Positions 2,694-58,210 of a DNA stretch of 64,000 nucleotides are shown here, one piece after another. Below the pieces are notes generated by a model. That model searched no databases, was not told the DNA's origin, and saw nothing but the letters and a program-made list of their open reading frames with translations. The stretch is from Paraspadella gotoi (lineage: Eukaryota; Animalia; Chaetognatha). The DNA is taken from positions 24,026,349-24,090,348 of the forward strand of contig CM119268.1 in NCBI GenBank assembly GCA_051294375.1, read 5' to 3'. Within the stretch, counting starts at the first letter, position 1; every line of letters starts with the position of its first letter. Position numbers and translations under genes: made by a program.

Positions 2694-3240
2694 AACTCAA
2701 ACCTCCAATCGGTTGAGAGAGAAGATGCGATTTTCGGAGGTCATTTGAAGGTCAGTTAGGGATCATTTGAAGGTGACTTAAAGGTCATATAAAGGTCATT
2801 TGAAGGTCATCTGAAGGTCATTTGAAAGTCATTTGAAGGTCACTTAGAGTTTAATCTAAGGCCAAATCGAGGTTACTACGTTATATAAATGTAAAAAAAA
2901 ATTTGTGTTGTCTTTACAAAATTGATAAATAAATTAAAGTGAATGGAAAAAAAAATTGAGAAGAAAAATTGAATCTTGACTCAAAAGAAAAAGAAAATAG
3001 TAAATGAATAGAAAATGAATAAAAATAATATTTTTTTGAAAAGAAACAATCAAATGAGAAAGGATTTTAAAGGCTGAGGTGTTGTTTTGTGATGGAGGCC
3101 CTAAACCAAGATAGCCTGTCCAAAGTCAGGGGCAAGATAGCTTTTTTATTAATTGATTGGATATATATTGTTTTGGTAGCAACAATTTCATAAAAAAGAA
3201 ATAATTAATATCACTAATATTTCACGACTTTGAAAATTCT

Positions 3241-5677: not shown

Positions 5678-7591
5678 ATGGGAAGTCAAGGACAAGGAGG
5701 ATATCAGTCGGGCGACAGATTGGGACAACTTCGTGGACAGGTGAGACAAATATGAAAAGTCCAGGACAATGAGAAGATCAAAATTAATATATATTAAAAA
5801 ATATTAAGTTTCTCTAAAAAAAGTAACTTTTTAATTTTTTTTTAAAAGGCAACGTGATTTGTAATCTAAAATTAACCATTAAATCATTCCATTGGATTTT
5901 TGATTATTGTTATTTAAGTTAGTTTCCACTTTTTTCACTTTCCTTTTTCCTCCCTTTCATTTTTCCTCCCTTTCCCTCCCTTTTTCCTCCCTTTCCTTTT
6001 TCCTCCCTTCCTTTTCCTCCCTTTCCTTTTTCCTCCACTTTCCTTTTTTCTCCCTTTCCTTTTTCCCCACTTTCCTTTTTCCCCACTTTCCTTTTCCTCC
6101 CATTCCTTTTTCCTACACTTTTCTTTTTCTTCCACTTTCCTTTTTTCTCCCTTTCCTTTTCCCCCTTTCCTTTTCCTCCCATTTCTTTTTCCTCCCTTTC
6201 CTTTTTCCTCTCTTTCTCTCCCTTTTTCCTCCCTTTCCTTTTTCCTCCCATTTCTTTTTCCTCCTCTTTCCTTTTTCCTCCACTTTTCTTTTTTCTCCCT
6301 TTCCTTTTTCTTCCACTTTCCTTTTTCCTCTCTTTTTCCTTCCTCCTTCAGGTTGACGAGGTTCGGGGAGTCATGTCTCAGAACATCGAGCGAGTGATGG
6401 AGCGGGGAGAGCGTCTGGACGATCTTGTTGACAAGACTGGAGCGCTGGAGCAGAACGCAGTCAAGTTTAGGCAGACGTCGAAGAAAGTGAGTATAGGAAC
6501 TTAAATCATTTAAAATAAATACATAAATAAATAAAATACTTTGCCTCATTTCAACAGCTTATAGAACAACATTATAACACTATTTTGGGAAGGAAACCTT
6601 GTACTCTGGGAGAGAATAAACTGGACTGTTAGTGTTAGTTCTGTTTTGAACAGGAAGAGAGGACTTAACCCAACTTAGCCTGTACAATGTATACAATACA
6701 ATACAATGTGTACATTGTACAGTAGAGTGATGTGAAAATGATACAATTTTAGAACATAAAAATAAAAACCAATAGAAATACTTTGGTAAATTTTAAGATC
6801 GGATGTGGATTCCTTGCGAAAAGTTGATATAAGAAAGTATATTTCTTTTTTAAAAATGTTTTCATTAAGTTGGTCAAAAATATAAAAAACTATATTTAAA
6901 ACGCCGATTTTCAATTTCCAGCTTAAAAATATAGTTTTTTGTAATTTTAACCTACTTAATGACATCATTTTTAAAAAAGATTTATATTTTCTTTTATCAA
7001 CGAGGAATCTGAATCTGTTCTCAGAATTTAAAAAAAATATTTTCAAATTTTAACATTATATAAAATTATAAATTATAAGGGTAGTACTATATGGAAAATA
7101 AGCTGACTGGGCTACTATATTTATAAAAAAAAGAAAAATAACTACAGATTAGTATTCACTAAAGTCAGGGGCAAGATAGCTTATTTATTTCATAATCCTT
7201 ATATTCTTTGTACCAATTTCATAGCAATACAAAGAAATTAATCTCTATTACAGTTTATACTGTTAATAAGAGAACCTGGCTTTCCCATCAATAAAATTAT
7301 TTTATATTTCTTTATGATAAATTTTTTTTTTTCATTTGAGGTAAAACGCAAAATGTGGTGGAAAAACACGAAAATGACTTTGATTTTAGTTGTTGTTGTC
7401 GTCGCGATTATCCTCATCATCATTTTCAGGTAAATTAATTCTTTTTGTTACTTGTTTTTAGTTACTTGTTTTCGATTTTGTGATTTAGTTAATAATGTAT
7501 TGAAAGATTATTCCCATAATTAATCTTGCTTATTATATTAGGTTGTTACAACTTAATTGCAAGCATGCGGCGGTTTCTTGCTGTTACATGT

Positions 7592-9092: not shown

Positions 9093-9500
9093 AAAAAATA
9101 ATATGAATATGATAAATAATTTTAAATAATATTGCATTGTAGCTGAAAATATAAGGTTGTTTTTTGTTATCCTGTATCTAAAGACACAATTTAAAAAAAT
9201 ATTTAATCAATAAAATAAAAATATTTATTAAATATTAAAAAATATATAATTTAATAATTTTTTAAAAAGTAATTTAAAAAAATACCAATTACTTTATATA
9301 ATAACTGCAGTAGTTTGCTTTGTTCATTTTTTAAATTTTAGGCATCCTATAAAATGGTATATACTTGTGCGCTTTTCATGAAAATAAATTCTTGTTTTTC
9401 GATCTGGAATAGGAGCAGTAAGCAGTAAGCAGTACCATTGGGACACCGTGCTTTTTACGTTTGCTGAATAAATAAATAAACCTGGGTCATAAAATAACTA

Positions 9501-9860
9501 TATAAAATTGGTACAAACAATATAAAAATTATCCATTCATTTATTAAATAAGCTATCTTGTCTCTGACTTTGGACCGGCTTTGGTGGTTTAAGGCCTCCA
9601 TCACACTTACAAGATAATAACATAGCAGGTTTCTGCAAGCTTTCAATCAAGACTCTCACAGTCTTATTTATTCACTCCCAGTGAACCTGGCTTCCCTATC
9701 AATGAAGTGGTATATTATTTTAAAGAATGTTTCAATTGTATGAGAAGACCACTCCTTAAGTATTAGATCGGGGAATACTATATTGTACTCCGCACTTGCA
9801 TCATAATACAAGGAGCTGAATTTTATAAAATTGTTACAAGCAATATAAAAATATAAAACC
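9501..9860 (-). mobile_element. Twister-bearing retrozyme-like repeat, slightly more than one full unit (period 323 nt)
   Basis: Reverse complement of the family consensus. Terminal redundancy tataaaattg(g/t)taca at 9501 and 9824. Twister-like core at 9553-9617. Confidence 0.75.
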
Positions 9861-9977
9861 AATATAACCAATATATAAACCAATATAAAAATAAAAATAT
9901 AAAAAATTAAGGATTCTATACAAGGTTTTTATTGTGCTTAATTTAACTTTCATATACTACTTTCAAATATTATATCA

Positions 9978-10187
9978 ATTCATTGATAGGGAATACAGGT
10001 ACTTAGGGAGTGAATAAACGAGACTGTAAGAGAGTCTTGATTGAAAGCTTGTAGGGACCTGCTATGTCATTATCTTGTAAGAGTGATGGAGGCGTTAAAC
10101 CACCAAAGCCTGTCCAAAGTCAGGGCCAACATAGCTTATTTAATAAATGAATGGATAATTATTATATTGGTTGTACAATTTTCATAT
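9978..10187 (+). mobile_element. Twister-bearing repeat, 5'-truncated copy, head-to-head with the 9501-9860 copy
   Basis: Matches the consensus from ttcattgatagggaa to gttgtacaattttcata. Ribozyme core at 10070-10134. Confidence 0.75.
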
Positions 10188-10740
10188 AGAAACATAAGTT
10201 ACTTTTATTCAGATTTTATTCAATTATTTAATTTTATATTATTATTATTCAATAATCAATATTATTATTCAGAACAAAATAATGAGATTAAGCGTTGTTT
10301 TTTTAGGAATAGTATAATTTTCAGTACAATAAACTTGGGATAACTACTATGGTTAAAATTTCGAAAACAATATTTTTTAAAGTAACCTTTCCAATAGTTA
10401 TTCTTTACTTGTCGTTCGTCAAAAGACAATTAACTTCTGAAAAGAAAAAGATTAAACTTATATAAATCGTAATAAACTTAATATAAATTTAATTATTTTA
10501 ATCAAGAAAACGAAAAATATTTAACCTTACGAGGAAAAATTACAAAGACACAATTTTAAAATGAATCAAAATTCGTAAAAATGGATTTGAAAAAGTTTTA
10601 AAATGATAATAATCATGATAAAATAGATAAAATAAATAAATAAGATATTGATCCAGAAGCAATGCAAAGTATTGTAAGCAATGCAATGCGATGCAGTATG
10701 ATCATGAATTGTGTCCAATGTTTCCTCTTTGCTCCTCAGT

Positions 10741-19471: not shown

Positions 19472-21221
19472 ACGATATATCCAAGTGGCACTTGGTATTT
19501 TCCCAGGCAGGTCTTTACCTGATCCAAAACTATCCCACTCAACAGCAAAATCCTCTCAGTCTATGAAAAGTCAATGACCCGATCTCATCATCAACATCCC
19601 ACCTTTGTCTGGCCAGGGGGGGCCAGCTCATTTTGAGCTCTTTCTTCACTTATAATTTTACTTATCTGTCATCTTATCTATCTCTCACCACTTACCTCTA
19701 CATTTCATTTTTCAATTTTCACTATTCATTTTTTACTTAATTAATTTATTTAAGTTTAAATTTAAGTTTAACTATTTTATCCATGTTGTACATTGCCAAA
19801 TGTAACTATTTCTCTCTCTATTTCTCTCTCTCTCTCTCTCTTTCTCTCTTTTTTTTTCTCTCTCCTCTCACTTTTTCACAATTTCAACTTAACTTTCCTC
19901 TTCTTCCCTGTCCTTACCTTCACCTGTCCTCACATCTGACTACTATCCTTTGTTGGAAACTCTCTCTCAATTTCTCTCTCTCTCTCTCTGTTTGTAACCA
20001 AAAACTGCTAAATTCCAAAACGCCACGAAAAGAGAGAAACTTAACATAATTATTTTAAATATATTAATTCATTCATTCGATATATTGGTTTATCCCGTCA
20101 TTTATTCTTTCATTCATTCCGTATATTTATTCCTTTATTAATTAGTTTTTCTCATTTCTTCGTTTCTTTTTTCATTCATTTATTCGTTCGTTCATTCCTG
20201 TTTTCTTTTTCTCTCTTTGCTACTCTAAATTTTGTTTTCATTCATTTGTTCATTCATTCAATTAGTTATATATATAATCCAAGATCACCCGGAAATACTC
20301 GTGAAAAGAAAGTCTCTCTAGCAGCCAAGGAACGGGTCCTTGGCTTGGAAACGGGCTCGAGGTGAACATATTTCAATGCCCGACGACAACTCATGTCTAT
20401 ACATATCGTTACGAGTGAAGCAATAAACAAAAGTCTCGTCAGCTAGAAAATCTACAACATATTCTGCAGGTTTTGCGCAGGTTCACTTCGCAGGCTCGTC
20501 TATCGATTTTAACTCAATCAGCTTGGTACTAGGTCAAATCTTAACCCGGTGACTGTCCTACAGAATGCTTGAGGACGATCGTAAATCGCTTTGAGCGAGT
20601 AGCGATCCAGAGGCAGATAACGAAGTAATGGCGTAATTGCGAATAAAAAGTGAATTTAAAGAACATCGAATAAACCTATTGAATTTATTATTCATTGTAT
20701 GATCAAATAACTCATTTTTTAAAATATTTTTTACAGTAAAAACGAAATTCTACGTCTTGCCATTAAATACATTCGCCTTCTTGACGGAGTCATCGAATTT
20801 CAAGATGCAGAAGCAAAAACAAAAGACACGAGAGGAGAAAAAAGTTTCGGTCAAAATCCGAGAGATGGCGGAGAGGTGGAGAATGAGGCCGTGACGGCCA
20901 AATCGAACAAAAGGTCAGTTTGAAGTCTCCTTAGGGTGGGATAGAGGCCTTAAATCTTAAAGCTTTTTTATTAAGGCTAATTTGATATTTATAATATATT
21001 ATTTTTTATATTATTTGTACCAATTTCATTCCAGAGCTAAATTCTCTAACACTGTTTGGACTTCAACTACTGTGTCGGCTGCAGCGTCTTCAGCGGCTGC
21101 AGCGACGGCTGCAACCCCTGCTGCTGCTGCTGCGGGATTCGAATCTCCGACTTTTAACTTTTCAAATTCTCCTGATTCCTGTTTCGATTTTAGTTCAGAA
21201 TCTGAAGGAGAAGAAAATTAA
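15495..21221 (+). CDS. TAL1: TAL1/SCL/LYL1-family bHLH transcription factor (HLH3B-like), 5 coding exons
   Basis: Exons 15495 (or ATG 15615)-15877, 16486-16741, 18838-18947, 20737-20913 and 21035-21221, phases 2,0,2,2 consistent. The b[40 protein letters not shown]|[15 protein letters not shown] is diagnostic of the SCL family. The 5' exons are less certain than the bHLH exons. Confidence 0.88.
17068..17890. mobile_element. Fold-back MITE-like element with subterminal and long internal inverted repeats
   Basis: Subterminal IR aaaattcgaatagt / actattcgagtttt, and internal IR about 17172-17300 versus 17415-17545. A second member with nested insertions lies at 31327-35070. Confidence 0.65.
17566..17828. 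repeat. 24-bp minisatellite (tttacaggtacaagcctcttcatg), about 11 copies
   Basis: Directly visible, inside the fold-back element. Confidence 0.95.
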
Positions 21222-24480: not shown

Positions 24481-26943
24481 CAAGAGGTGGATTCGTGGAC
24501 GGTCCAGACAAAGGGATGACTCCTTCGCCTTGGGATATTTCAATCCCAAGGAAGGGATTCTTTCAAGAGAACATCGTTAAAGTCGAAGTGATGAAGTGAT
24601 AAAATGATAAAGTGATAAAAAAATAAACTGAAGTGATGATATGATTTAATGATAAAATTTTAAAATGATAAATGGCACCACATTTAAGTAAGTAGACAGG
24701 GATTTCTCTCTGGAGGCGTGGGTTCGAATCCCACCACTGGCACCACATTTAAGTAAGTAGACGAGGATTTCAACATGAAACCAAAGTGGAATTTATTTCA
24801 GTATTTGAACAAACGCAAGACGGTGTCAGAATTTGAGACAGAGTGAATCAGTAAAAAAATGGTCAGTATTTTTACAGAGCCATCGGATCATCGACACGGG
24901 CTGGTTTTCCCCCTGGCATGAAGCCCAACTTGTGATTGGTCCAGTCACTTGGTGGTTCGTCCAATTAGAAAGCAGAATCCGACTTCCGATTCTATTTTTG
25001 GTTCCGATTGCATCTGTGATGAGACAATATGAACATGCAATATTTTTTCAAATAAGAATTTAAAAAAATAATTAAAAAAAGACTTTTAATAAAGAAAGAC
25101 AACTTAATCTAGTCTTTTTATTTGTTTATGAAACCATGAAAAATGAAAAGATATTTCGGCTCCAGTTGCATGCCCTAATTAGCACAAATCCGCCCTAAAA
25201 AAAAAGAGATTGTGTGACTCTCACAGGTGCCTCACACATCCGTGATTCATATCTGCTCTCGATGCGGAGGAAGCGGTGAGCAAATCTGCAGCAACTGCGG
25301 CGGCGAAGGACTCCTAATTTGCTACAAGTATAAATTAGATCATTCAAAAAAAATTCGAAGTAGAATTTAATCAAGCTCATAACAATATATTATTTTTTGG
25401 GATGAGGCGCTATGTAGGCAGAGTACTACTATCCGTATCCTATGTGCCTCCTCAGCCCCAATGGAACGGGGAACAAGGCTTGGGGGCTTTTCTGGACCCC
25501 AAGGCGGTTTACGGCCGTTCGCACTCAACCCGCAGAGGAGGTACCATTGGTGATCCATCCGGGTACCAAATGATCAGGTGCTGATGGCTTTAATGAATGA
25601 GCCACTCTGTCACTACTTAGTACTACATTATAGTCGGAGTGAACATTTCGAAATGTAATTGGATTAATTGATTATCTATTATTAAAGCTCTTGGGGTAGC
25701 GGTTAGGAAATGAATTGGCGTTGCTACTTAATTGATTGATTATCTATTAAAGCTGTTGGGGCAGCGGATGGGAAATGGATTGGCCTTGCTACTTCTGTCG
25801 AGGACGTGGTCTAATACGTTGCATTAATTGCATTGGATCTGGCAGAATGTCTTGCCGAGCTTGTCGCGGATGTCGGTAAATCAGTTGTAACTAACCCTAA
25901 CATTATATATTATATTTTAATCTATGTCCCTCAGGCAGTTAAAGTCATCTGTAGAGTTGATCGTGAGATTTCATAATGTTTCATCTAATTGGGTCTACGA
26001 TCGAACAAATCTTCCTTCTCATCTCTTGAAGAAAGCTCACGGGAAGCGCATCTTCGAGCAATGCTTAGAAAGGGTGGCGCCTATTCAGGTCACAAGGTCA
26101 AATGTCTCAAGGTCAAATGTCTCAAGGTCAAAGGTTTAAGTTCAAAGCAAGAAAGCGGATTTTTAAGAGAAGGAAGAAAATCAATGGAAGTTAAATTTTT
26201 TTATTTAACATTAAATTTAAGTTTAAACTTTAATTAAAATGCTTTATTTGTAACTAATCAAGTTAAGTTACGGGCCGCCAAACATTCGAGTTAATTTTTT
26301 AATAATGTAGGTAATTGAATTATTTCTTTTTTTAAAATAAGAATTTTTTTTCATCAGGGATACAAAGTGAATGAGTTGAACCAAGCAAGTTACGAACTTT
26401 TAAATAAACATTACAAGATACAAGAAAAAGAAAGAATTCACTATCAGGTAAACGAAGATATAGCGCAAATGAAAATTTAAAATAAAAAGGCTAATAACAC
26501 ATGATCATTATGTCCCGGGATTGATCCCCAATGCTAATTATCATGCGGGAAGCGTGAAGACGGCCGTAAACCACCTGGAAAACCCTTAGGCTTGGTTCCA
26601 AGCCCAGCATCTGTTCCATGAACGCTAGACAGGGTTTAAGAAGTTGCATATAGCACTATTCAACACACTGAGCGCCTTATCTACATTTTGGTGAATAGAA
26701 TAATAATTAATTAATTAATTAATTAATTTGAAAATAGATAAATAAAAACATACATAAAATTATTAAAAGTTAGATAAGACTTTATTCTTTCCGCAGGGCC
26801 ACCACGTTGATGTTGTCCCGCTGTCAGAAATCGTTGCAGTTGGTCGACGGGATGCAACAGAATTTGTCTTTTGGATTTATGGTTTCGAGAAAAATATTTA
26901 TTTTCCTGATTATCCCGATAAGAGTTGCTGCAGCTGTTCTTGA
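21857..26943 (+). CDS. SSUH2: SSUH2 (ssu-2 homologue, C3orf32-like) protein with DnaJ-type CxxCxGxG zinc-finger repeats, 12 exons
   Basis: Exons 21857-22025, 22261-22293, 23014-23121, 23351-23479, 23724-23803, 24185-24276, 24485-24587, 25227-25327, 25753-25875, 25935-26088, 26358-26447 and 26797-26943, phases consistent. Motifs include ITEEEIRD, VDGPDKGMTPSPWDI, VPHTSVIHICSRCGGSG..CSNCGGEG..CYNCWGSG..CYFCRGRG..CINCIGSG..CRACRG and the C-terminus FWIYGFEKNIYFPDYPDKSCCSCS*. Confidence 0.9.
24706..24745 (+). pseudogene. 3' half of a tRNA-Leu-like sequence with encoded CCA
   Basis: CTCTCTGGAGGCGTGGGTTCGAATCCCACCACTGGCACCA comprises the variable arm, T arm (GTGGG-TTCGAAT-CCCAC), acceptor strand and CCA. 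No 5' half is present. Confidence 0.7.
25399..25617 (+). mobile_element. SINE-like insertion in SSUH2 intron 8, with a related antiparallel copy at about 26500-26685
   Basis: GC-rich insert sharing ggYggtttacggccg and gatccatcc(c)ggg blocks with the reverse complement of 26500-26685. Confidence 0.45.
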
Positions 26944-30900: not shown

Positions 30901-33900
30901 CATCAACACGAATGTGAGACCAACAACTGATACTTTGTTCTTTCTTCCTTCACCAGAAAGAGTTCACGTTAAACCAAAGGTCAATGGGTCAAAAGGTCAA
31001 GGGGTCGAGAGGTCATGGGGTCGAGAGGTCATGGGGTCTAAAGGTGAAGAATTCAAAAGGTCAAGGGGTCAAGAAGTCAAAAAGGTTAAGGGTTCACGGG
31101 CTCATTAAGTCAAAGGGTCGAAAGATCAGGGGGTCAAGCAGTTAAGGTGTCACGTGGCAAAGAGGGGTCATTTATAGGTCACGGGGTCAAGTGATCAAAT
31201 AGCTTTCTCAAGTAGCTTTCTCGTTCTGTTAAAGATAAACATTTCTCAAGTCTTTTGTCGTCTTTCTCTCTGTTCACCCTTCACTGTGCAAAANNNNNNN
31301 NNNGTCTTTCTCTCTGTTCAACCTTCACTGTGCAAAAAGGCGGAGTGAAAGTTGCAGATCAAAATTCGAATAGTTGATCATGAACAGTAGGCCGGAACAG
31401 GTTGAAAACTAGAAGTTCTCTCAAATAAATAATGGTTAAGTGACTGTTATAGAATATGAAAATAAAAATAATTTTTAAAATTTATCTTATTGATTAGTGC
31501 ACGGAAGCATTTAAAGATTATTTTATTACTATATAAAGTTTAAATTTAAAAAAAAAATTTTTAATAGATTCTGGTAGAGCTTTAAAAGTTAGATAAAGGT
31601 TATTAATACAACTTTTTAAATTGTTTTTTTGTTTTATTAATTTGTTTTATTGATAAAAATTTTAAAAAACATAAAATTCAACCAATGATGATGATGATGA
31701 TGATGATTTTTTAAGGTTTTTTCTATTTTTAACCAATTTATTTTCAAAATTTTAGAAAATTGTAATACTAACTGTCATTTAACTTTTCAAGCTCTATAAG
31801 AATCCGTTCTTAAAAAATAAAATATAAAAAAAAAATGTTGTCATTTATTATATATTAATAAATATTTAAAAGCTTCAGTGTAACAACCCAATGAACTAAT
31901 TCAAAAAGTTGCATTGAAAATCGATTTAGTAATAGATGGAAAAAAGGAATTTTTTGAGAGAACTAGAAGTTATAAAAAGTGTTCAAATTTGGCCCGCCTT
32001 AATGAACAGTCTTGGACTAAACATTGATATATAAATTTCTTTTTTAAATTTTCCTGCAAAAAGGCGGAGTGTGAAAGTTGCAGATCAAAATTCGAATAGC
32101 TTGATCATGAACAGTAGGCCGGAACAGGTTGAAAACTAGAAGTTCTCTCAAATAAATAATGTTAAGTGTGTTAGGAGAATATTGAAAATAAAAATAATGT
32201 GTTAAAATTTATCTTATTGATTAGTGCACGAAGCATTTAAAGATTATTTTATTACTATATAAAGTTTAAATTTAAAAATAAACAAATTTAATAAACTTCT
32301 GGTAGAGCTTTAAAAGTTAGATAAACAGGACTGTGAGAGAGTCTTGATTGAAAGCTTGCAGGGACCGTGCTATGTAATTATCTTGTAAGAGTGATGGAGG
32401 CCTTAAACCACCAAAGCCTCGTCCAAAGCAGGGCAAGATAGCTTATTTATTAAAATGAATGATAATTTTTATATTGGTTGTACCAATTTCATTAAGGTTA
32501 TTAATACACTTTTAAATTTTTTGTTTTTATTAATTTGTATTGATAAAAATTTTTAAAAAACATAAAAAATTCAACCAAGATGATGATGATGATTTTTTAA
32601 GGTTTTTCTATTTTTAACCAATTTATTGTCAAAAATTTTAGAAAATTGTAATACTAATTGTCATTTAACTTTTCAAGCTCTATAAGAATCCGTTTCTTAA
32701 AAAATAAAATATAAAAAAAATTTTTGTCATTTATTATATATTAATAAATATTTAAAGCTTCAGTGTAACAAACCCAATGAAACTAATTCAAAAAGTTGCA
32801 TTGAAAAGCATTTAGTAATAGATGGAAAAAAGGAATTTTTGAGAGAACTAGAAGTGTATAAAAAGTTGTTCAAATTTGGCCCGCCTTAATGAACAGTCTG
32901 GACTAACATGATATATAAATTTCTTTTTTAAATTTTTCATTTTCGCATATGCCCATATTTATACATAGTACTTACCATAGAAAAAAATTGTTCTGAGTTT
33001 TAAAAACGGATTCCTATAAAAAAAGTTGATAAAGAAAATTATATAGGACTAAGCTCTGACAAAAAAAGTCAGAGGGTTTTTTTAATATATTCTTGGACCG
33101 GCCAACTGTTAGAATGATGGCAATATTGCTATTTTTAAGTTTCAAAAAAATCCGACCATAAATATAGAAAATATTAACCAAAATCTTCGGCAAAATCCAC
33201 CCCTTCTTTGGAAGATTTTCGCCATATAAGATTTTTTCATGTTGAAAACTCTTTAGAATTCCGACATCTTAGCTCCTCTTTTATCTTTTACCTTATAATA
33301 TAAAAATTTCACCAAAATGGACTAATTCACTTTAACATGATCGTATCTATATTCAAATAACCAAATGAAATGTAAAGAAAATTTTGAGAGCCCTTCAGAC
33401 ATATTGCTATCAGATTCCCTGGATTCGGAAGTTTATTGTAAAATGACAACATACCTTAAATGCGTTGACATTGTATTGAAGTATTGAGAAATCCCTTTAT
33501 TCTTATATATAAAAATTGCATCACAAAATATCTTTCCCGAGCGGAATCCATCTGAATCGAATGGTTCGATGTCAAAATGATGGTAATTTGTCAAGACGAA
33601 AATAACAATGCGAGCCCTTCAGATGCAACAGGATCGGAATCGAGTGTTTCTTACATCTTATTTTCTTACCTGAATTTTCCCAGGCGGCGTTGACATTTAT
33701 TTGTAGTCATTATTTTAACAAAAATCTCCATTGAAAAGTTTCCTCGATTTCTAAGAACGACGTAGACTCCTAAATACNNNNNNNNNNNNNNNNNNNNNNN
33801 NNTCATTTTCGCATATGCCCATATTTATACATAGTACTTACCATAGAAAAAAATTGTTCTGAGTTTTAAAAAGCGGATTCCTATAAAAAGTTGATAAAAG

Positions 33901-42900: not shown

Positions 42901-45900
42901 GCAAGGCCTTTAGCATTACCAAATTAAAAAAACATTTTAAAATATCTCTATTCAAAATAAAAATATAATTAAATACCTAAAATGGTGGAAAACTATGATT
43001 TTTTTTAACATTTTTTATTTGAAGTAACATTATTTTTTTGCCTCTAACTTTTAAACAATTTAAACAAAGCTACTGAAAGGAAATTCAATATAAATTTAGA
43101 AACATTCTGATATTTTTTAAATCAAACAAGTTTTTGAGTAGATATCCTTTATTAAAAATGTCATATACTTTTTTCCTAGATAGTATTAGTAAATATTTTA
43201 ACTTTAAAATTTATTAATCACGCGAATTAAGAGTTATGTGGCGACTTTCAAAACTTTCAATTGACTTTGTCTCCCGATCTCTTTTTCTTTTTTTTTAATT
43301 TCCTTTTTTGTTCACGTTTATTAATGACATAAGATATTTTTGCAACCTTTCCCGCAATTATTTGTTTGCTCTGTTTTCTTTTCAGAAATAATTTAAAAAT
43401 AAGATGTTTTCTTGATGTTTCTAGATCAAAAATAAAATATAATAGTAGTAAGAGTAATTGTAATAGTATATGAACAAAAAAGGAGAAAAAATCCACAAGA
43501 AAAGAAAAAGCATAACAATAGGCAAACAAATATTTACAGAGTTATTAGCAAAAATGCTCAACCATGTAAAATTGGTCACTAGTCATATGTGACATTAGTT
43601 CAATTGTATAATGTCCCCTAATGTTTATTTTAATGAAAATTTGAAAAATTATTTGTTTCACTATTTTCTATTTTTTTATATTTTATAAAGGATTTTTTAT
43701 ATTAATCTATATATTAATATGCAGGACCTGCTATGTCAATTATCGTTGTAAGAGTGATGGGAGGCGCTTAAACCACCAAAGCCTGTTCCAAAGTCAGGGG
43801 CAAGATAGCTTTATTTATTAAAATAATGTAATGTATTTTATAGCTTGGTTGTAGCCATTTTCATAAAATTTTCAGCTGCTTGTATTCTATGAATGCTAGT
43901 CGTATACAATAAGTCATATTCCCCCCGATCTAATTAAACTTAAGGGAGTGGTCTTTTTCATACAATTGAACATCTCTTGAAATATTTTCCACTTCATTGA
44001 TAGGGAAGCCAGCTACTCTGGGAGTGAATAAACAGGACTGTGAGAGAGTCTTGATTAAAGCTTTGCAGACCTGCTATGTCATTATCTTGTAAGAGTTATG
44101 AGGCCTTAAACCACCAAAGGCCTTGTCAAATCAGGCAAGATGTTATTTATTAAATGATGGAGAAATATTTTATATTGGCTGTACCAATTTCATTTAATAA
44201 TATATATATATATGTAGTCGGGCATTGCTAGTTCACCCCGCCTATAGCATGACACCTTCAGTCCGACCTGGTGGCTCATTGATCATATCATATATCTAAT
44301 AATGGCAGCAACAACACGCGACCTTATCAGATTCAAGAACCATATGCCCAAAAATGTTTCCTCTCACTCAATCGCTGACGGTCACCACGGTCATCAGTGA
44401 CTCGTCTCCCGGCTGTCCTCAGCCAGCTCATTGTAAAAGTTATTGTACTGTTTTAGACTTTAGCATTTTCTCTTGTTGATTTTGTATTTGTTGTTGGAAA
44501 TTAAATCATTCTCGACTGAACCTCGTCTCGTTTACTTAGCCACACGTGGTGAGCCCGATAAACGAGTGAATTAAAAAAAAAAAAAAAAAATTTTTAAACA
44601 ACCCAAACGACATTCACGTTTTTGACTCGCATTTCTTTTTTTTTTTCCTTTCATATTTGTGCCAACAATATAATCACCGTTTGTTTTCGTTTTGTGTTGT
44701 ATTTGTGGCATCGTTTAACAGTTGATATAAAACTTGGCTTTCACGGGATCTCACAGACTCCACTCCCTCACGAGCCTCGCCGCCATCGCAAAACCAGATA
44801 TGCAACGCCGCAGACAAGAATAGAAGTGATGGCCGCCCAACAAAATTCAAAACGGCGAAGCACACGCGCGCTGAAGGTGAAGAATGACCCGCTTTGTAGA
44901 AGCAAGCTCGACGACCCCAATTGCCAATCCCCTCAATGGTTCAAAATTTTCCGCTTGGCACAGTCGGGAGTCAACAACCTTTCAACTCAGAGAGGCACGG
45001 TCGCTGAATGTTATGCAAAACTCCAGCCTACGCCTCTCCCGACATCATGCCTGGAGCTGAGGCTGCCCCCACAGCGTCGACTGCGCCCTCGAGTGAATGG
45101 CGCCCCCCAAACTGCGGCGCCCCTCGAAGCTGACGCCAGGGTCGACTTCCCCGCGACCCCAGAAACGCCAAAACTCCCGGCGCTCACCAACAATATTGAT
45201 TCGATGTTGGAACTGCGAACTGCGTTTGAAGATCGCCGACGTCTTCGATGAGCGTACCAGGAAGGCGCACCGCTTGCAGCAATCCCCTTCAGACGTCACG
45301 CCATCTAACCCCAACATTCCAAGAACAAAGGCCAGAGGGCGCCACCTCCAGGCTCGTCACCACCTCAAGGCCGTCATGATGAAAATAAGCCCCAACGGGC
45401 TTGCAAAGTGCTGAGGATGACGTCTTTGAGAGGTAGCACCCCTCATCCAACACCTCGCCGCTCTCCGGTCCAAGCAGCCAGAATCTCACTAAAGCATGAC
45501 TCCTCTCTGCCCTCCTTACTGCCTCCCTGACCTTGCCTCTCGATGCGCGACCTACGTCCAGAAAGAAGACGAGAAGCCTCGACTCTGTAGCCAAACCGGC
45601 ACGCTTTCACATCTCCGTCTGGACAATTCCGGAACCAAAACGCTGCAGTGAACGCCTTCACGTTCACAACACCATTCGAAGAAGAACCCTGTCGCACGTA
45701 CTGTTGAGCCCCGGAAGACATTCGCAGACACGGAAAACCGAGACGGTCCCAATGTCATATGCCAATGCCGCTCAGAGACCTTTTCAAAAAACACCACTAC
45801 GCCTACGAAACCAAACAAATGCAACGCCGACACTCAAACAACCACGAACAGCAACGACGACCACCATCACAGTTTCCGTACTTCAGAACCCGGGCTCCCT

Positions 45901-48900
45901 CCTGGTGAAACTAGATGTTCTTCCATTACATCTATGGCAAGCCAGGGCAAGCCAATGCGATGGACCCACCTGCAGCATAGGCTGTCAAACCGCCAAACGC
46001 CGGCGGCGTGAGTCGCCCGCGTCGCCTTGGCGAACTGATTCCAACCTTATCTCTACCTGCGCGACGCGGGACGCCCGTGGAAGTGGCTCGCGATGGTGCG
46101 TTCAGAGGGCAACCCTCTTCGCCCGCTACCGAAGCTGATGCGCCAGGCAGCAACATCCCGCCGCAGTCCAACAGCGGCACTCGACCGCTGCCAACTTCCC
46201 AACCCTCCACGCCGCAAATGACACACCCATCAAATATCTACGGTCTTCTGAGAGATGCAAATTCGTCTGGCCTCCCGAGCTATCCTTACCTCGTAAGCCC
46301 ATTGCAGATGTGGCCAACGCCCACCTCGGAGCAGATTTCTTGATGGAACACCACCTGGCGCGACCATCGACGCCCGCATCCTGCTCAACTTGATGATGTC
46401 AGGTCATCGCCGGCCATCGGCAAGCCCTTGCCGCAGCACCACTGCGCGTCCACCATGTCCGCGACTCCTGTACTCATCACTGCTTGGACGAGCGACACAG
46501 AACTCACGAAGCTGCGTCTTCAACGCGCACTCCCAAGCATGGGATGAAGCACACATTCAACCAAAGGTCCCCCGGTCTCGCCCGGCCAGACGACTCGCCC
46601 CCGACCATACTCCACTGCTGCAAAGGCAGAGTTCAAGCAGATGGAGGAACTAGCATCATCCGCCGCTCTACCTCCCGCATGGCATCCCCTCTACACGTCA
46701 CCGCGCAAACCAGAGGCCCTCCCTCTCGACCTTGTGGGACTACGGCGCCTAATGGCGCCACCAATGACACCGTTATCCAATCCGCCACTCGATTGGACTT
46801 CAATCAGACATAGCGGGAAAAAAACAGCTTTCTCAAGATCGCATCTCTGCAAAAAGGATACCATCAACCCTGTGCCAAGAATACCGCCAAGAAGACTGCC
46901 ATCATCACCCCCTTCGGCCTCTGGCGAGTTCGACTTCATGCCAATTATGGCTGGAAAAATTGCAGCCCAAGACTTCCAGGAATATTGGATCAGGTCCTCA
47001 ACCCATCCCGCATGTCTTCATTCTACCTGGACGACCTCTTTTTTTAGTCCCATGAAGAGCACCTCGAAGATCTCAAGCGGCTTTTTATATTTCGTTTATA
47101 TATTTCTCGTCGTCAACCGCACTATAATGTGTCTTGGCCCCCAGCTCTTGTTAATTCTCTGGGCTTTACACGTGGACCGCTTTTTTATATTTATATCTCA
47201 GCAAAATTGATGCGATCCGCACATGACTCGCCCACCCATCAAGGGTTGCAGCGTTCCTCGGATGCTGCAAACTACTACCGGCGCTTCATCCCGTATCTCT
47301 CTATCACCTTAGCCTCCGCTTACGAACTTATCACGGGAAAGCGGCGCACTTCGATGGACAGCGCCACAAAGAATGCTATGTCTATTTCACTATTCAATTC
47401 AAGAAATTTCCTTCTTTCGTCCGCCCACACTCTTGTCACCGACGATGGCGCCCCACTCGCCGACTGTAGACGCACTATTCTGTCTTCTTATTGGCTTGCT
47501 TTCTTCTTGGACGTCTGTCTTGATGGTTATGCATGGCAACCATTGGTTTTTCTCTGTCCTGAATGCTTAAATAAGCTCGCAGATCTAAGTGGGCCTCCGT
47601 TTGACAAAACTGTACGCTGCCCATTTTCATGTCTTCTCTACTTTTTCTGTCTTGTCTATTGTCTTTGATGTGTGTGGGTGTAGCTCGTGTTGGGGTTTTC
47701 TCTGTATTCACACTCATTTAGCGACCACATCTCGCTCGTCCCCGCACTCCGGAAAAAAAGGACGAGCACACACAAGCGCCAAACATATCAGCTTGCTGAA
47801 TTGCAGAATTCAACCTCTGACATTCGAACACATCGCCGAAAAGTCAAACATCGTTAGCCATGCCCTTTCCCGACCATTTAGAGGGGAGGTCAGTGTTGTC
47901 TTCGGAAATAGAGGGAGCATCTAATACAACACAAGGTTAATTATCTTAATCTCCTCTTTTTCTTCTAATATAATCATCATCATCATTCTGTTAGAATATT
48001 ATTAATAAAAAATCATAATATTACGAGCCTGAACAGAAAGGGTTGGGAATGGGTAATTTTTTGAGAGGGGACCAAAGTTATATTAAATTATTATATTTAC
48101 TGATATCATTTGATTTTACTTTTTAATCTTAAAAGAGAGTAATTACTATTTAGTTGATCAAACAGCTTTCAACTTTTTAAATTTTTTTCTGCCTCAACCT
48201 AAAGATTTGCTTCAATGAAATCGACAAAATCCGAGCTTTAAACTACGACGAAGATTTCTACTCTTCGTTTGACGAAGCGTTGGAGAAAAGAATGGAGGTC
48301 GTTGCTAAGCGACAGTTTGGAATCGCTTATGAGTGGAAGTTAAAGGGAAGTCCGTGGAAATGGGGACAGTGGCAAAATAAGGGTGAGTAATTGAAGGAAT
48401 GTGCGTTTATTGGCGGGAAAAGTATGGACGTGAAAAGAATTCACAATGTTTTATTTATAAACTTGGAGCAACCTTAATAAAAATCATATTTTCATTCAAT
48501 AAATAAGCTATTTTGAATTAAGGTCTCGTTATCATAATAAAGCCTTTCATTCTTTCAATCAAGTTATTCACTTTCATAGTATTTGGCTTCTTTGTTATAC
48601 TATTTCCTGTGATGATATTGTTTCACGATCTAATACATTACTCATTACTTAAAGAAGTGTCCATTTTATACAATTGAAATATTATTTTAAATATTATGCC
48701 ACTTCATTGATAGGGAAGCCAGGTACTCTGGGAGTGAATATGTCATTATCTTGTAAGAGTGATGGAGGCCTTAAACCACCAAAGCCTGTCCAAAGTCAGG
48801 GGCAAGATAGCTTATTTGTTATCATAATGGTTCTACTGATTTCAATCCATTCATTCAGCTTTAGCTATTCATCTACACCACATTCTTCATTCAATTGGTT

Positions 48901-49076
48901 TTTCTGTCCTCGTTTCTGCTGACACGTCATCAAAATTTGTTCCAACCGACGCTGGAGCTTCATACGCTATGGACGCACATTCTTGGTTTTTCGTTCCGAC
49001 TCCAGATTTAGAATTCATGAGAAGTGGAATGCATGAAAGAGACACTGCAGTCAATAGAAATTCACTGGAAGCTTTG
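27933..49076 (+). CDS. Uncharacterised four-repeat protein of the fungal/invertebrate family with W.xGIQ / FKLxGxPW / GW...D.S / D(V/A)HSWFF repeats (recalled as PTHR38696-like), with N-terminal MGxxxS myristoylation motif
   Basis: Exons 27933-28014, 28219-28330, 29123-29247, 29411-29580, 29876-(gap), 30638-30742, 30887-30979, 35230-35313 (alternative donor 35520), 36262-36385, 40038-40155, 41267-41704, 42055-42141, 42302-42427, 48205-48382 and 48859-49076(+). Repeat cores: EFWPPGVQ..YRIKLNGSPF..GWQPLVSSD; EFVIDGSPW..GWHLIINTN; YWPKGIQ..FLKLRGTPW..GWIIKCCLDSS; EWKLKGSPW..GFSVLVSADTSSK..MDAHSWFF. Single-base homopolymer indels near 28312, 29129, 29170, 29225 and 41273 break the frame as assembled. 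The 3' end is unresolved. Confidence 0.75.
28298..28592. repeat. 40-41-bp minisatellite spanning an exon/intron donor, about 7 copies
   Basis: Unit ccttggagttcaatgggatggacctgagccaaaggttaga. Confidence 0.95.
31389..32001. mobile_element. Nested MITE with 9-bp TSD (Mutator-like)
   Basis: TSD ATGAACAGT at 31380-88 and 32002-10, with the empty site at about 17120-17130. Imperfect terminal and internal inverted repeats (agttctctcaaa / tttgagagaact). Confidence 0.7.
32326..32493 (+). mobile_element. Twister-bearing repeat, 5'-truncated insertion with an empty site visible at about 31591-31600
   Basis: Present in the second copy of the 31330-32050/32053-32940 duplication but absent from the first (agataaaggttatt). 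Confidence 0.8.
35310..35485. repeat. 21-bp minisatellite (gtcggcaaggacaaaggattc), about 8 copies
   Basis: Directly visible. The first copy contains the donor TCG|gtaaga. Confidence 0.95.
36449..36623 (-). mobile_element. Short Penelope-like insertion with inversion (about 60-bp hairpin) and 12-bp TSD
   Basis: Inverted repeat at about 36485-36626 whose loop contains GAGC-GAAAC-ATGTC. Flanking direct repeat TAAAGTCTAATT at 36437-36448 and 36624-36635. Confidence 0.65.
36669..39172. mobile_element. Non-autonomous DNA transposon with long (several hundred bp) imperfect TIRs, CACTG...CAGTG termini, TA flanks
   Basis: 36669-37100 is the imperfect reverse complement of 38740-39172. Termini are ta|CACTGTTTTTTT...AAAAAAACAGTG|ta. 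Superfamily uncertain (EnSpm/CACTA-like or Tc1-like). Confidence 0.8.
38230..38390 (+). mobile_element. Penelope-like pLTR remnant with degenerate hammerhead
   Basis: AAACA-tttcATGAA-GACTCG-aaaa-CGAGTC-GAAAC-ATGTC-TGTTT (stems I and II intact, core mutated). The tail aligns with that of 55879-55982. An oppositely oriented, more degenerate motif lies at 37561-37594 (minus). Confidence 0.55.
39208..40030 (+). mobile_element. HINE/DINE-1-like element, family A, second copy
   Basis: Same 5' end, (GTCC)n, about 120-bp repeats and identical 3' end gcagatccgacattgtttgctcaaacttgtttt. Confidence 0.75.
41001..41280. repeat. Compound repeat: 5 copies of aattaacagaccaacggattcttt separated by (aattt)n
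   Basis: Directly visible. The last copy is the exon acceptor. Confidence 0.95.
43720..44194 (+). mobile_element. Twister-bearing repeat, about 1.4 units in head-to-tail tandem (two ribozyme cores)
   Basis: Cores at about 43740-43809 and 44081-44143, joined by the same spacer seen in 9620-9830. The sequence is indel-noisy. Confidence 0.75.
44213..47895 (+). mobile_element. Degenerate Ty3/Gypsy LTR retrotransposon, CsRn1-like clade, intronic, sense to host gene
   Basis: 5' LTR TG(44213)...CA(44544) with ATTAAA, and PBS TGGTGAgCCCGA (44547-58, tRNA-Trp-like). Frameshifted gag, protease (ADVA..LGADFL..HHL, about 46300-46360), RT (ARPRRLAP, EFKQMEEL, ASPLHV, KTAIITPFGL, YLDD at about 47025) and RNase H (NYYRRFIP, WQPL, SNIV..ALSRP). 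Then a purine tract AGAGGGGAGG at about 47880. No integrase or 3' LTR is recognisable. Confidence 0.85.
48663..48817 (+). mobile_element. Twister-bearing repeat copy with internal deletion, preceded by a degenerate inverted copy (about 48490-48590)
   Basis: Consensus match ccacttcattgatagggaagccaggtactctgggagtgaata...gcaagatagcttattt. It lies in the intron between exons 48205-48382 and 48859. Confidence 0.75.
48746..48810 (+). ncRNA. Putative type-P5 twister self-cleaving ribozyme (best-preserved copy)
   Basis: TTATCTTGT-AA-GAGT-GA-TGG-AGGCCT-T^AA-ACC-AC-C-AAAG-CCTG-TCCA-AA-GT-CAGG-G-GCAAGATAG. P5 9 bp (48746-54/48802-10), P4 CCTG/CAGG, T1 CCA/TGG, T2 AC/GT, conserved GA and UAA. P2 is imperfect and P1 is only the palindrome AGGCCT. 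Confidence 0.7.
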
Positions 49077-49199
49077 GTTAGTCTTTATATCTTATCTTAA
49101 ACTAATAACATCTTATATTAAACTATTCATCATTTAATATATTGTGGAAAAGGCGCTAAGCGGTCTGAAGAGAGCTATCCGCAACTTTTTTAACCCTTT

Positions 49200-49960
49200 C
49201 TAGCACCCATGAAACGTGTGGTCCTTGTGTCCCGCCTACAGCTCTTAGCTCGAATCACCCGGACGCGGCCGCCAAAACGCAAACCGACGGGCACACAACA
49301 CTTTCAACCGGCGTTCAATCGAATAAATGCACTCCAGCCAGATCCAGCCCCAAGCGGCGGGGGTTGGTAGGACAGCGGGACTGGATTCACGCTGGGGCGG
49401 TCGCGCCAGCAGCGTCGGCGTGTGAGAGCCGTCGCGAGCACGTTTTGGACAGCGTCGACGGTGTTCAGAAGCGGCCAGCGCATCAACGAACGCAGCCATC
49501 GACGGTCCCGGGCGGGGCCGTACACGCCGTCCCTCGGAGCAGATTCCGAGCGCCGCCTCACCGCGTTGGCGGCGCCGATGAGATGACCAAGGTTGCTTTT
49601 ACCAACAGGATCGCGACCAGACGCCGACCCGAGATCGTGCCAGATTGTGGCCGAGCCGCCGGTGGCAACAAGGCGACAGCGTAAACCCGGACGAGCGCGT
49701 GCCAGTAATTTCCCTGCGAGAAATACCGCGGAGGACCCGCGAAGTAATTTGGACGGCAACGGTCTCACGCTTCCCTTCGGGAGGGGGACATTGAGATCCG
49801 GTGAACCTAAAAAAGTGGGTCTTATGTAGCTTAGATGGTGCGGTAACTACTCGAGGAAATAACCCTGCCCCTGAGCAGTGATTCCAGATAAGCTCGAAGA
49901 TAGGCGGGTATTTATTGGGCCGGAATATGAGTCCGCTGTCACACTATAATTTCTTCTCAT
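49200..49960 (-). mobile_element. GC-rich degenerate retroelement-like fragment
   Basis: Abrupt GC-rich island with broken reading frames on the minus strand, vaguely like the Cys/His-containing C-terminus of a non-LTR ORF. No diagnostic motif. Confidence 0.3.
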
Positions 49961-51249
49961 GTTTTTAACTCATTGAACCCTGCGCATGGCTAAATCCGTG
50001 GAGAAGAGTGAACGCAGGCGTAGCTGCCCACAATTGGCGTAAAAAGTCCAAAAGGAAAAAGAGTGCAAGCAACAGATAATACTGAAAGCCGTGAAAAAAA
50101 ATGATTGTTGGATCGGTTGATTGAACTGAAGTTGTTTATGATATTGAACGAAACCAGATTGAGCCGGGCTGGANNNNNNNNNNNNNNNNNNNNNNNNNCA
50201 CAGAAATCGTCAATCGATTAATTTCTTTGTCAGTAAATCGGTAATTCCCTGAATAAATAAATATTATCAATGGAAAAAAAAATATTCAGAAATACTGAGT
50301 GGTTTTGATTAATGTAGATACTTTGGATAATATGAAAAGTATAAAAACAAATATTCAGCAGTCCTTAAGCTATTTGGGAATAACTTTGGACCTTTGTTAC
50401 TTAAGAACAGTCACATTAAAAGTTTTAAAAACATTTATTGAAACTTCATGAACGTCGTTTTCTGTCGATGCACAAAACCTCGAAGGATGTTGATAGAATA
50501 ATAGAAAAATGGATATTTTTACGTGACGGGTTTNNNNNNNNNNNNNNNNNNNNNNNNNNNNNNNNNNNNNNNNNNNNNNNNNNNNNNNNNNNNNNNNNNN
50601 NNNNNNNNNNNNNNNNNNNNNNNNNNNNNNNNNNNNNNNNNNNNNNNNNNNNNNNNNNNNNNNNNNNNNNNNNNNNNNNNNNNNNNNNNNNNNNNNNNNN
50701 NNNNNNNNNNNNNNNNNNNNNNNNNNNNNNNNNNNNNNNNNNNNNNNNNNNNNNNNNNNNNNNNNNNNNNNNNNNNNNNNNNNNNNNNNNNNNNNNNNNN
50801 NNNNNNNNNNNNNNNNNNNNNNNNNNNNNNNNNNNNNNNNNNNNNNNNNNNNNNNNNNNNNNNNNNNNNNNNNNNNNNNNNNNNNNNNNNNNNNNNNNNN
50901 NNNNNNNNNNNNNNNNNNNNNNNNNNNNNNNNNNNNNNNNNNNNNNNNNNNNNNNNNNNNNNNNNNNNNNNNNNNNNNNNNNNNNNNNNNNNNNNNNNNN
51001 NNNNNNNNNNNNNNNNNNNNNNNNNNNNNNNNNNNNNNNNNNNNNNNNNNNNNNNNNNNNNNNNNNNNNNNNNNNNNNNNNNNNNNNNNNNNNNNNNNNN
51101 NNNNNNNNNAGTGAAATATTGAAAATGAAATGGAAAAGGATAGTTTGTGTGGGATAGTTAAGATAAAGAGGGAAGAGAAAAATAAGTAAAGAAAGAGCTC
51201 AAAATGTCCTCACATCTGACCACTTTCCTTTACTAAATTCTTTGTTGGA

Positions 51250-55819: not shown

Positions 55820-55982
55820 AACAAAGTTTAGAAGAGAGATTTAACAACGATTTTTATTTCATAGTGAAACGGACATGTGAGTCGAAACATGTCCGTTTCA
55901 CTATGAAATAAAAATCGTTGTTAAGTCTCTCTTCAAAACTTTGTTCTAAATCAAATCACAACGAAACAGAAAGGAAAAAACA
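55820..55982 (+). mobile_element. Short Penelope-like insertion with 5' inversion (about 60-bp hairpin) and 13-bp TSD
   Basis: Inverted repeat 55820-55946 centred on the hammerhead 3' half GAGTC-GAAAC-ATGTC. Flanking direct repeat CAATGAAGGCATG at 55807-55819 and 55983-55995. Confidence 0.7.
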
Positions 55983-58007: not shown

Positions 58008-58210
58008 GAAGCCAGGAACTGTGGGAGTGAATAAACGAGACTGTGAGAGAGTCTTGATTGAAAGCTTGCAGAGACCTGCTATGTTGTTATCTTGTAAGAG
58101 TGATGGAGGCCTTAAACCACCAAAGCCTGTCCAAAGTCAGGGGCAATATAGCTTATTTATTAAATGAATGGATTATTGTTTAATTAGTTGTAACATTTTT
58201 ATAAAATTTC
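58008..58210 (+). mobile_element. Twister-bearing repeat, 5'-truncated copy
   Basis: Consensus match with ribozyme core at 58087-58152. Further fragments occur at about 3088-3192, 6585-6630, 7161-7222, 16220-16290 (minus) and 20945-21029. Confidence 0.75.

What the first reader, a model, noticed from the sequence alone, without database searches (positions are those of the whole stretch)
48746..48810. A type-P5 twister ribozyme with a palindromic 6-nt P1 is the core of the window's commonest repeat
Seen: TTATCTTGT AA GAGT GA TGG AGGCCT TAA ACC AC C AAAG CCTG TCCA AA GT CAGG G GCAAGATAG, recurring at 9553-9617 (minus), 10070-10134, 32378-32442, 43740-43809, 44081-44143, 58087-58152 and partially at about 3090. 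Established: the twister core is P1-U^AA-P2-T2...P4-U-T1-AA-T2'-P4'-(P5)-AA-P2'-GA-T1'-P1'. Every element maps here in the P5 permutation. Relative to the O. sativa twister as I recall it, the changes are compensatory: P4 CCUG/CAGG vs CCGG/CCGG, T1 CCA/UGG vs CCC/GGG, T2 AC/GU vs GC/GC. A 9-bp P5 closes the ends, and the 9.6-kb copy converts its G-U pair to A-U. The predicted cut is U48772^A48773. The unusual part is that P1 is just AGGCCU, too short for a hairpin but self-complementary. Inference: two tandem units could pair P1 intermolecularly, like dimeric minimal hammerheads with palindromic stem III, so only multimeric transcripts cleave. The weak point is P2, which has 3 bp with a bulge or mismatch.
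Basis: partly seen in the sequence, partly recalled or inferred. Interest (0 to 1): 0.92.

Follow-up and report, generated by a model that had tools for sequence, protein, structure and literature searches.

The report
Palindrome-paired twister ribozyme in retroelement repeat
A very common repeat in this animal genome carries the fold of a twister self-cutting RNA whose first helix is shrunk to a six-letter palindrome, which likely lets neighbouring copies pair up to cut, and the same design recurs with other palindromes in the tails of Penelope-like jumping genes that were thought to lack such ribozymes.

Summary
The motif is real. It sits at 48746-48810 and recurs at the listed places, inside a ~340-nt repeat unit with a shared 3' end, variable 5' ends, and tandem and inverted copies. 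Rfam Twister-P5 matches it at 25.8 bits, below the cut-off of 37.6; core nucleotides, T1, T2 and P4 all map. Copies within the window add decay, not covariation. Independent support came from outside. A metagenome contig (L004) has the same spacing with compensatory changes in T1, T2 and P4 and a different palindrome (CAGCTG). It lies behind a Penelope-type reverse transcriptase whose long relatives carry an N-terminal GIY-YIG (Naiad/Chlamys type). A second, decayed family in the window has CGGCCG. By eye, 5 of 23 published Naiad 3' ends hold a P5 twister with a palindrome just before the cut site, whereas 5 of 5 Rfam-grade phage P5 twisters have ordinary 6-11-bp P1 hairpins. Pairing between copies is therefore likely, as in dimeric Penelope hammerheads. 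'Only multimers cut' is unproven, because twisters tolerate loss of P1. Cleavage, expression and an autonomous partner in this genome were not shown. Verdict: new variant of a known ribozyme.

The parts
48746..48810 (+). Type-P5 twister-fold motif, focal copy. P5 48746-48754/48802-48810; P2 48757-48760/48775-48777 (3 bp, one bulge); conserved GA 48761-48762; T1 48763-48765/48790-48792; T2 48778-48779/48795-48796; one C-G pair 48780/48784; P4 48785-48788/48797-48800
48766..48771 (+). 6-nt palindrome AGGCCT in place of the P1 hairpin; predicted cut between 48772 and 48773
   Evidence: sequence; self-duplex -9.1 kcal/mol, 1-bp hairpin +5.6
48646..48821 (+). Repeat copy holding the focal motif; lacks 46 nt upstream of the motif and stops early at its 3' side
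48456..48515 (-). Inverted partial copy (3' end of the unit only) just upstream of the focal copy
   Evidence: 77% over 60 nt, E 3e-7
43726..44196 (+). Partial tandem: 5'-truncated unit followed by a full unit; cut sites 338 nt apart; many 1-nt indels
9480..9860 (-). Full unit preceded by the last ~30 nt of a previous unit; motif at 9553-9617
9960..10189 (+). 5'-truncated copy, inverted against the 9.6-kb copy with 5' ends facing; motif at 10070-10134
32321..32502 (+). 5'-truncated copy; motif 32378-32441 with indels in P4
58002..58203 (+). 5'-truncated copy; near-intact motif at 58087-58151
3088..3192 (+). Short 5'-truncated copy lacking the 5' strand of P5
16197..16290 (-). 3' fragment of the unit; further fragments at 7161-7223 (+), 16779-16882 (-), 21000-21029 (+)
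26541..26621 (+). Second, decayed family with the same layout, palindrome CGGCCG and a longer P3; one mismatch each in T1 and T2
   Evidence: 19.7 bits; Rfam Twister-P5 15.5 bits, E 0.6
25440..25580 (-). Diverged partner of the second family (73% over 79 nt), inverted against it, same palindrome, core GA mutated; ends approximate

Best explanation
This is a type-P5 twister-fold RNA motif, predicted to self-cleave at U48772^A48773, inside a high-copy ~340-nt repeat that is likely a non-autonomous derivative of the terminal repeat (pLTR) of a Penelope-like element of the Naiad/Chlamys type, and its palindromic P1 would form between two copies rather than within one. Shown: the fold's pairings and core, the unit's tandem, inverted and 5'-truncated layout, and the same ribozyme layout behind a Penelope-type RT elsewhere. 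Inferred mechanism: in a tandem transcript the 3' half of unit n and the 5' half of unit n+1 form an ordinary type-P1 twister whose P1 is palindrome against palindrome (6 bp), and the reciprocal halves can form a second core on the other end of that duplex. Because each copy must supply both P1 strands with one sequence, the sequence has to be self-complementary. Cutting at successive units would release a unit-length RNA (338 nt here) with 5'-OH and cyclic-phosphate ends, to be copied by the RT of an autonomous element in trans, perhaps after circularisation as in retrozymes. I expect pairing to speed cleavage strongly rather than to be an absolute requirement.
For: Fold: Rfam alignment; L004 matches gaplessly over 65 columns with 6 pairs changed on both sides, against 0-2 for slid controls (one of the six is the inner palindrome pair, and all six come from one sequence). 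L004 was found with the six P1 letters left free and was the only one of 27 collection hits with T1, T2, P2, P4 and palindrome all intact. Context: L004's twister lies ~290 nt behind the stop of an RT ORF (YMDD) on the same strand; 15 of its 21 near relatives carry PF26215; 4 of 14 long relatives scanned have an N-terminal GIY-YIG with the RT match at the C-terminus. Window layout: 11 of 13 non-self pieces end 87-99 nt past the cut while 5' ends run from -259 to +62; partial tandems and inverted 5'-truncated neighbours are as described for Naiads, which lack canonical hammerheads (PMC8557442 passages). Palindromes: AGGCCT, CGGCCG (window), CAGCTG (L004), and a palindrome right before N^AA in 5 of 5 Naiad twisters read by eye, one imperfect; 5 of 5 Rfam-grade phage P5 twisters have 6-11-bp P1 hairpins. 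Energy: the swapped two-strand form is ~13 kcal/mol better than two monomers for both the window motif and L004; monomer MFEs pair the palindrome into other helices.
Against: No cleavage or expression data. The Rfam score is below gathering. P1 is dispensable, so a monomer with a 1-bp stem and tetraloop, or no P1, might cut. No RT or GIY-YIG remnant was found in the window, and no genome was available to walk upstream, so the PLE link for this family is by analogy. Within-window changes are mostly disruptive, and the motif is only slightly more conserved than its flanks (0.90-0.95 against 0.79-0.91). The five Naiad twisters have an extra palindromic segment between T1' and the cut-site palindrome and a 4-bp P2, so their geometry differs; two have a U-U in T1. 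18 of 23 Naiad ends and 6 of 6 Chlamys ends seen showed no twister by eye (for Chlamys). Energies omit the pseudoknots and strand concentration. The CGGCCG family was found with a model trained on the palindromes, so it is only partly independent.
Confidence: 0.6

Rival explanations
1. It is a monomeric minimal P5 twister in the same kind of repeat: P1 is one base pair with a tetraloop, or open, and the palindrome is incidental or only tunes folding.
For: Twisters lacking P1 cut at near wild-type rate (PMC5408937 passages); P1 imperfections had no effect among natural type-P1 twisters (PMC11662667 section 32). Most window copies are solo.
Against: A monomer needs only the outer pair, yet the inner four letters are self-complementary in both compact families, with a compensatory change (GGCC against AGCT; chance 1/16 for L004's inner four, 1/64 for all six). 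PMC8501958 passages call P1-less cleavage inefficient.
Confidence: 0.25
2. It is a real twister-type ribozyme, but the repeat is not PLE-derived (for example a SINE-like or RTE-LINE fragment, or a satellite-like unit).
For: No RT in the window. Twisters are known at the 5' ends of RTE/Perere-3 LINEs (PMC8501958; PMC7761336). A fixed 3' end with 5' truncation fits any target-primed element.
Against: LINE-linked twisters sit at the 5' end with the element starting at the cut; here the unit extends ~250 nt upstream of the cut and ends ~90 nt after it, with partial tandems and inverted neighbours. The closest structural match lies behind a PLE-type RT.
Confidence: 0.1
3. It is a dead or chance look-alike: a hairpin-rich repeat with no ribozyme activity.
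For: Below Rfam gathering; monomer MFE is not the twister fold and its z-score is only -1.1; many copies are broken.
Against: All core letters and both pseudoknots are present, with compensatory changes in an unrelated element; the pattern has 0.00 expected chance matches in the window. About 94% of tested natural twisters were active (PMC11662667 abstract).
Confidence: 0.05

Closest known systems
Twister ribozyme, type P5 (Rfam RF02684, clan CL00120)
   Same: Order P2'-GA-T1'-P1-U^AA-P2-T2-P4-U-T1-AA-T2'-P4', closed by P5; conserved core letters; both pseudoknots.
   Different: P1 segment is 6 nt and palindromic (model: 3 bp around 14 nt; phage examples 6-11 bp); P2 has 3 bp; score 25.8 against gathering 37.6; in an animal repeat.
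Dimeric minimal hammerheads of Penelope-like elements and amphibian retrozymes (PMC6765202 and PMC7229834 passages; Lunse et al. 2017 not held, known only through those passages)
   Same: One helix next to the cut reduced to a palindromic stub; tandem copies; pLTR-type position; predicted to work as pairs.
   Different: Different ribozyme class; hammerhead dimers are shown experimentally, this is not; P1 is known to be dispensable in twisters.
Non-LTR retrozymes (PMC7229834 passages; bioRxiv 10.64898/2026.07.22.740005, part 1 of 5)
   Same: Non-coding 170-400-nt unit (338 nt, 36% GC here), tandem copies, one ribozyme per unit, proposed PLE origin.
   Different: Defined by type I hammerheads; here a twister. 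Only partial tandems at two loci; no circular RNA shown.
Naiad/Chlamys N-terminal-endonuclease Penelope-like elements (PMC8557442 passages and supplement)
   Same: Partial tandems, inverted 5'-truncated neighbours, very high copy number, no canonical hammerhead; 5 of 23 published Naiad 3' ends seen hold a P5 twister by eye.
   Different: No ORF is linked to this family in the window; the published Naiad twisters have a longer, two-palindrome P1 segment and a 4-bp P2.
T-variant twisters of Perere-3/RTE LINEs (PMC8501958 passages; PMC7761336 passage)
   Same: Twister with a defective P1 in a retroelement.
   Different: Those sit at the 5' end and take one P1 strand from the target-site duplication; here the motif is near the 3' end, P5-permuted, with an internal palindrome.

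Membership tests
Twister ribozyme (type P5) | Conserved core letters (U^AA, GA, U-NNN-AA loop 4) in the P5 order | tested here: met
   Rfam alignment; invariant columns
Twister ribozyme (type P5) | Pseudoknots T1 and T2 | tested here: met
   3/3 and 2/2 pairs; one compensatory pair each against L004
Twister ribozyme (type P5) | Stem P4, and P5 closing the ends | tested here: met
   P4 4/4 with two compensatory pairs; P5 9 bp here, and a different 5-bp P5 in L004
Twister ribozyme (type P5) | Stem P2 (4 bp in the model) | tested here: inconclusive
   3 bp with a bulge here, 3 bp in L004; imperfect P2 reported as tolerated
Twister ribozyme (type P5) | Stem P1 as an intramolecular hairpin | tested here: not met
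   6 nt only, at most 1 bp plus tetraloop (+5.6 kcal/mol); 6 bp possible between copies. Hence filed as a variant, not a canonical member
Twister ribozyme (type P5) | Rfam gathering score 37.6 | tested here: not met
   25.8 bits; L004 27.3
Twister ribozyme (type P5) | Site-specific self-cleavage | not testable with these tools
   needs in vitro assay
Penelope-like element pLTR (Naiad/Chlamys type) | Partial tandems, inverted 5'-truncated neighbours, shared 3' end | tested here: met
Penelope-like element pLTR (Naiad/Chlamys type) | Linked ORF with N-terminal GIY-YIG and C-terminal RT | tested here: inconclusive
   none in the window; no genome held; RT end present at L004, endonuclease only in its relatives
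Non-LTR retrozyme | Type I hammerhead in each unit | tested here: not met
   no hammerhead family among 65 Rfam matches of the window; minimal hammerheads could escape Rfam
Non-LTR retrozyme | Tandem 170-400-nt non-coding units | tested here: met
   338-nt period; partial tandems at two loci
Non-LTR retrozyme | Linear and circular unit-length RNA in cells | not testable with these tools
   no run on record as RNA; contigs only

The most novel reading that the evidence does not exclude
A natural 'double twister': Penelope-like elements of the hammerhead-less Naiad/Chlamys branch, and a twister-based retrozyme derived from them, use a P5 twister that is switched off as a monomer and cuts only when two tandem copies swap halves through a palindromic P1, the same solution that Penelope hammerheads reached with palindromic stem III.
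Probability: 0.35. Interest if true: 0.85.

Novelty: new variant of a known kind. Interest (0 to 1): 0.72.

Why it matters
Naiad/Chlamys elements were reported to lack canonical hammerheads, which raised doubt about whether Penelope ribozymes do anything for the element (PMC8557442 passages; 'twister' occurs 0 times in its main text). A second ribozyme class in the same position, with the same palindromic-stub design, argues that the element needs cleavage gated by tandem copies, and makes this testable with short RNAs. It would also be a natural twister that works as a pair, and a candidate twister-based retrozyme. I found neither in print: seven library searches listed no such paper, but I read passages of only nine papers, the library lacks most subscription journals, and Roth et al. 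2014 was not read. These motifs fall under the Rfam cut-off, so they are probably under-counted. Other reports of this scan already noted twisters in Naiad tails; the palindrome and pairing argument is what this locus adds.

Tried and rejected
No genome is held for the window. No run on record as RNA was listed; this says nothing about expression. In one search the tandem linker (43850-43929) had no cover in any of 4 runs at 80% likeness; the window copy there is indel-rich, so this is uninformative, and no read-based variant table for a clean copy was obtained. Pfam scan of 122 window frames found no RT or endonuclease; tblastn of 165 RT relatives against the window found nothing at E 0.01. 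The compact pattern gave 1 viral and 10 prokaryote-genome hits, none with the pairings, and 15 of 16 metagenome hits failed too. The L004 protein found no viral loci, no longer relatives by word search and no Pfam family itself. Exact-motif searches of the Naiad/Chlamys consensus file found no compact form, and none of the 30 of 32 eight-letter loop matches shown was a twister; line breaks and other T1 letters limit this. Phage matches with a 6-nt gap were chance hits or junctions of tandem type-P1 twisters (L086 by Rfam; L112 and L050 by eye), not short-P1 monomers. A hammerhead reading of the sequence upstream of the motif was considered by eye and dropped: no Rfam support. Rfam miRNA and snoRNA hits in the window are microsatellite artefacts. 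PMC5785218 was not held.

Full report
Observation. The 65-nt motif is at 48746-48810 and recurs as listed. A core pattern without pairing rules matches 4 window sites against 0.00 expected. The window is microsatellite-rich, gapped eukaryotic DNA, probably an invertebrate animal (inference); no genome is held. One DNA run lays 4447 contigs on the tandem copy, so the family is very abundant.

The ribozyme parse. Rfam Twister-P5 hits 48758-48800 and 58099-58141 at 25.8 bits, under the gathering score of 37.6. Copies within the window do not supply covariation: the 9.6-kb copy mends one P5 wobble but breaks two P4 pairs, three copies have indels, and the motif is only slightly better kept than its flanks.

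Independent example. I scanned three collections with a pattern that fixes core letters and spacing but leaves P1, P2 and P4 free: 1 viral, 16 metagenome and 10 prokaryote-genome hits. One of the 27, L004, has every pairing. It aligns without gaps over 65 columns, scores 27.3 bits on Twister-P5, and changes both sides of 6 of 23 pairs, in T1, T2, P4 and the palindrome, against 0-2 in slid controls. All six come from this one sequence, and the shuffle count is not a probability.

What carries it. In L004 the twister lies about 290 nt behind the stop of an ORF with a YMDD RT motif, on the same strand, with no C-terminal endonuclease. Of 21 near relatives 15 carry PF26215. Long relatives match at their C-termini, and 4 of the 14 that I scanned (of 150 listed) have an N-terminal GIY-YIG. 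That is the Naiad/Chlamys architecture, a clade reported to lack canonical hammerheads and to form partial tandems with inverted 5'-truncated neighbours (PMC8557442 passages). The window family has this layout: 11 of 13 non-self pieces end 87-99 nt past the cut while 5' ends vary widely (pairwise hits end at the same place); 43.7/44.1 kb are a partial tandem with a 338-nt period; the 9.6-kb unit is preceded by the tail of another unit; inverted neighbours flank the 9.6-kb and focal copies. No RT remnant is in the window, so this family's PLE origin is inferred.

Published Naiads. In the supplement of PMC8557442 (stored cut; parts 1-2 and search passages seen) I read by eye the last ~600 nt of 23 of 54 Naiad consensus sequences. 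Five hold a type-P5 twister with P5, a 4-bp P2, T2 and P4 paired and different letters in each: by file order Naiad-4_Chem, Naiad_Mley, Naiad-1_Movir, Naiad_Scon and Naiad_Mmer (names inferred from order; the last two have a U-U in T1). All five have a palindrome right before N^AA (CACGTG, AATCGATT, CACATGTG, AACCGGTT, and one imperfect), plus a second palindrome upstream. Eighteen showed none, nor did 6 of 49 Chlamys-sheet ends. These readings were not run through a model. A second decayed family in the window has CGGCCG in the compact layout, as an inverted pair.

Control. A canonical P5 pattern gave 96 viral loci; 13 passed a loose P2/P4 filter, 11 distinct. I sent six to Rfam: five are Twister-P5 above gathering, all with 6-11-bp P1 hairpins, and one is a junction of tandem type-P1 twisters. 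One of the five (L060) ends in a palindromic hexamer, but within a normal 6-bp hairpin.

Mechanism. A monomer can close at most one P1 pair (+5.6 kcal/mol), whereas the hexamer self-duplex gives -9.1. Monomer MFEs bury the palindrome in other helices; the swapped two-strand form is about 13 kcal/mol better than two monomers for both families, and the unconstrained two-strand MFE of the window motif is itself a swapped duplex with intact P4. These energies ignore pseudoknots and concentration. In a tandem RNA the 3' half of one unit and the 5' half of the next make a normal type-P1 twister with a 6-bp P1, which explains why the sequence must be palindromic (inference). This parallels Penelope and amphibian hammerheads with palindromic stem III that cut as dimers (PMC6765202 and PMC7229834 passages). 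Against a strict requirement: P1 is dispensable (PMC5408937 passages), though PMC8501958 calls P1-less cleavage inefficient (passages). My odds: twister-type ribozyme 0.9; PLE-derived 0.75; pairing between copies matters 0.6-0.65; monomer silent 0.35.

Novelty. Type-P5 twisters are known (PMC10085705 passage), as are twisters at the 5' ends of RTE-type LINEs and hammerhead retrozymes derived from PLEs (bioRxiv 2026.07.22.740005 part 1 of 5). Searches listed no paper linking twisters to Naiad/Chlamys elements or describing a palindromic-P1 twister; I did not open most listed papers, and Roth et al. 2014 and Lunse et al. 2017 were not available to read. Three earlier notes of this scan on other genomes report twisters in Naiad tails or animal repeats; I saw them after my own tests, and they are not independent evidence. 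A search of earlier notes for the palindrome and dimer idea found none holding all the words. Verdict: new variant of a known kind, interest 0.72. Cleavage, expression and the autonomous partner remain open.

Noticed in passing
PMC8557442 supplement S5, 3' ends seen: Naiad tails seem to hold different ribozyme classes in the same slot: hammerhead-like cores in several, P5 twisters in five, and in bivalve, hemichordate and two Clytia ends another shared structured motif that looks HDV-like to me (resemblance recalled, untested).
   Followed up: no
PMC8557442 supplement S5, five Naiad twisters: All five carry two palindromes between T1' and the cut, and the 5' half of the second is complementary to T1' and its neighbour, so a monomer could sequester T1' in an inhibitory hairpin that pairing between copies would release.
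   Followed up: partly
window 44214-50000: A GC-richer stretch that begins with a TG...CA LTR-like segment (about 44214-44545) and holds broken frames that read like a decayed LTR retrotransposon (by eye; no Pfam hit). The focal repeat copy lies within or beside it.
   Followed up: no
window 20571 (+) and 20940 (+): Further GA-NNN-palindrome-TAA stubs (CGATCG and AGGCCT) without an intact downstream core; possibly decayed members.
   Followed up: no
window 49143-49215 (-): 75% like the 3' flank of the second twister family (26613-26685); a third fragment of that family.
   Followed up: partly
L086, L112, L050: Phage contigs with back-to-back type-P1 twisters whose junction mimics a short-P1 type-P5 motif.
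   Followed up: partly
P0047, P0078, P0088, P0096: Penelope-type RT proteins with an inserted PCIF1_WW (PF12237) domain between the N-terminal region and the RT.
   Followed up: no
window 55844-55921: A near-perfect 78-nt inverted repeat (MITE- or miRNA-hairpin-like).
   Followed up: no
loose ends before 43938 and 43989: Many contigs of run X1 continue upstream of the unit with sequence unlike the window's linker, so other copies have other 5' neighbours, possibly an autonomous element.
   Followed up: no
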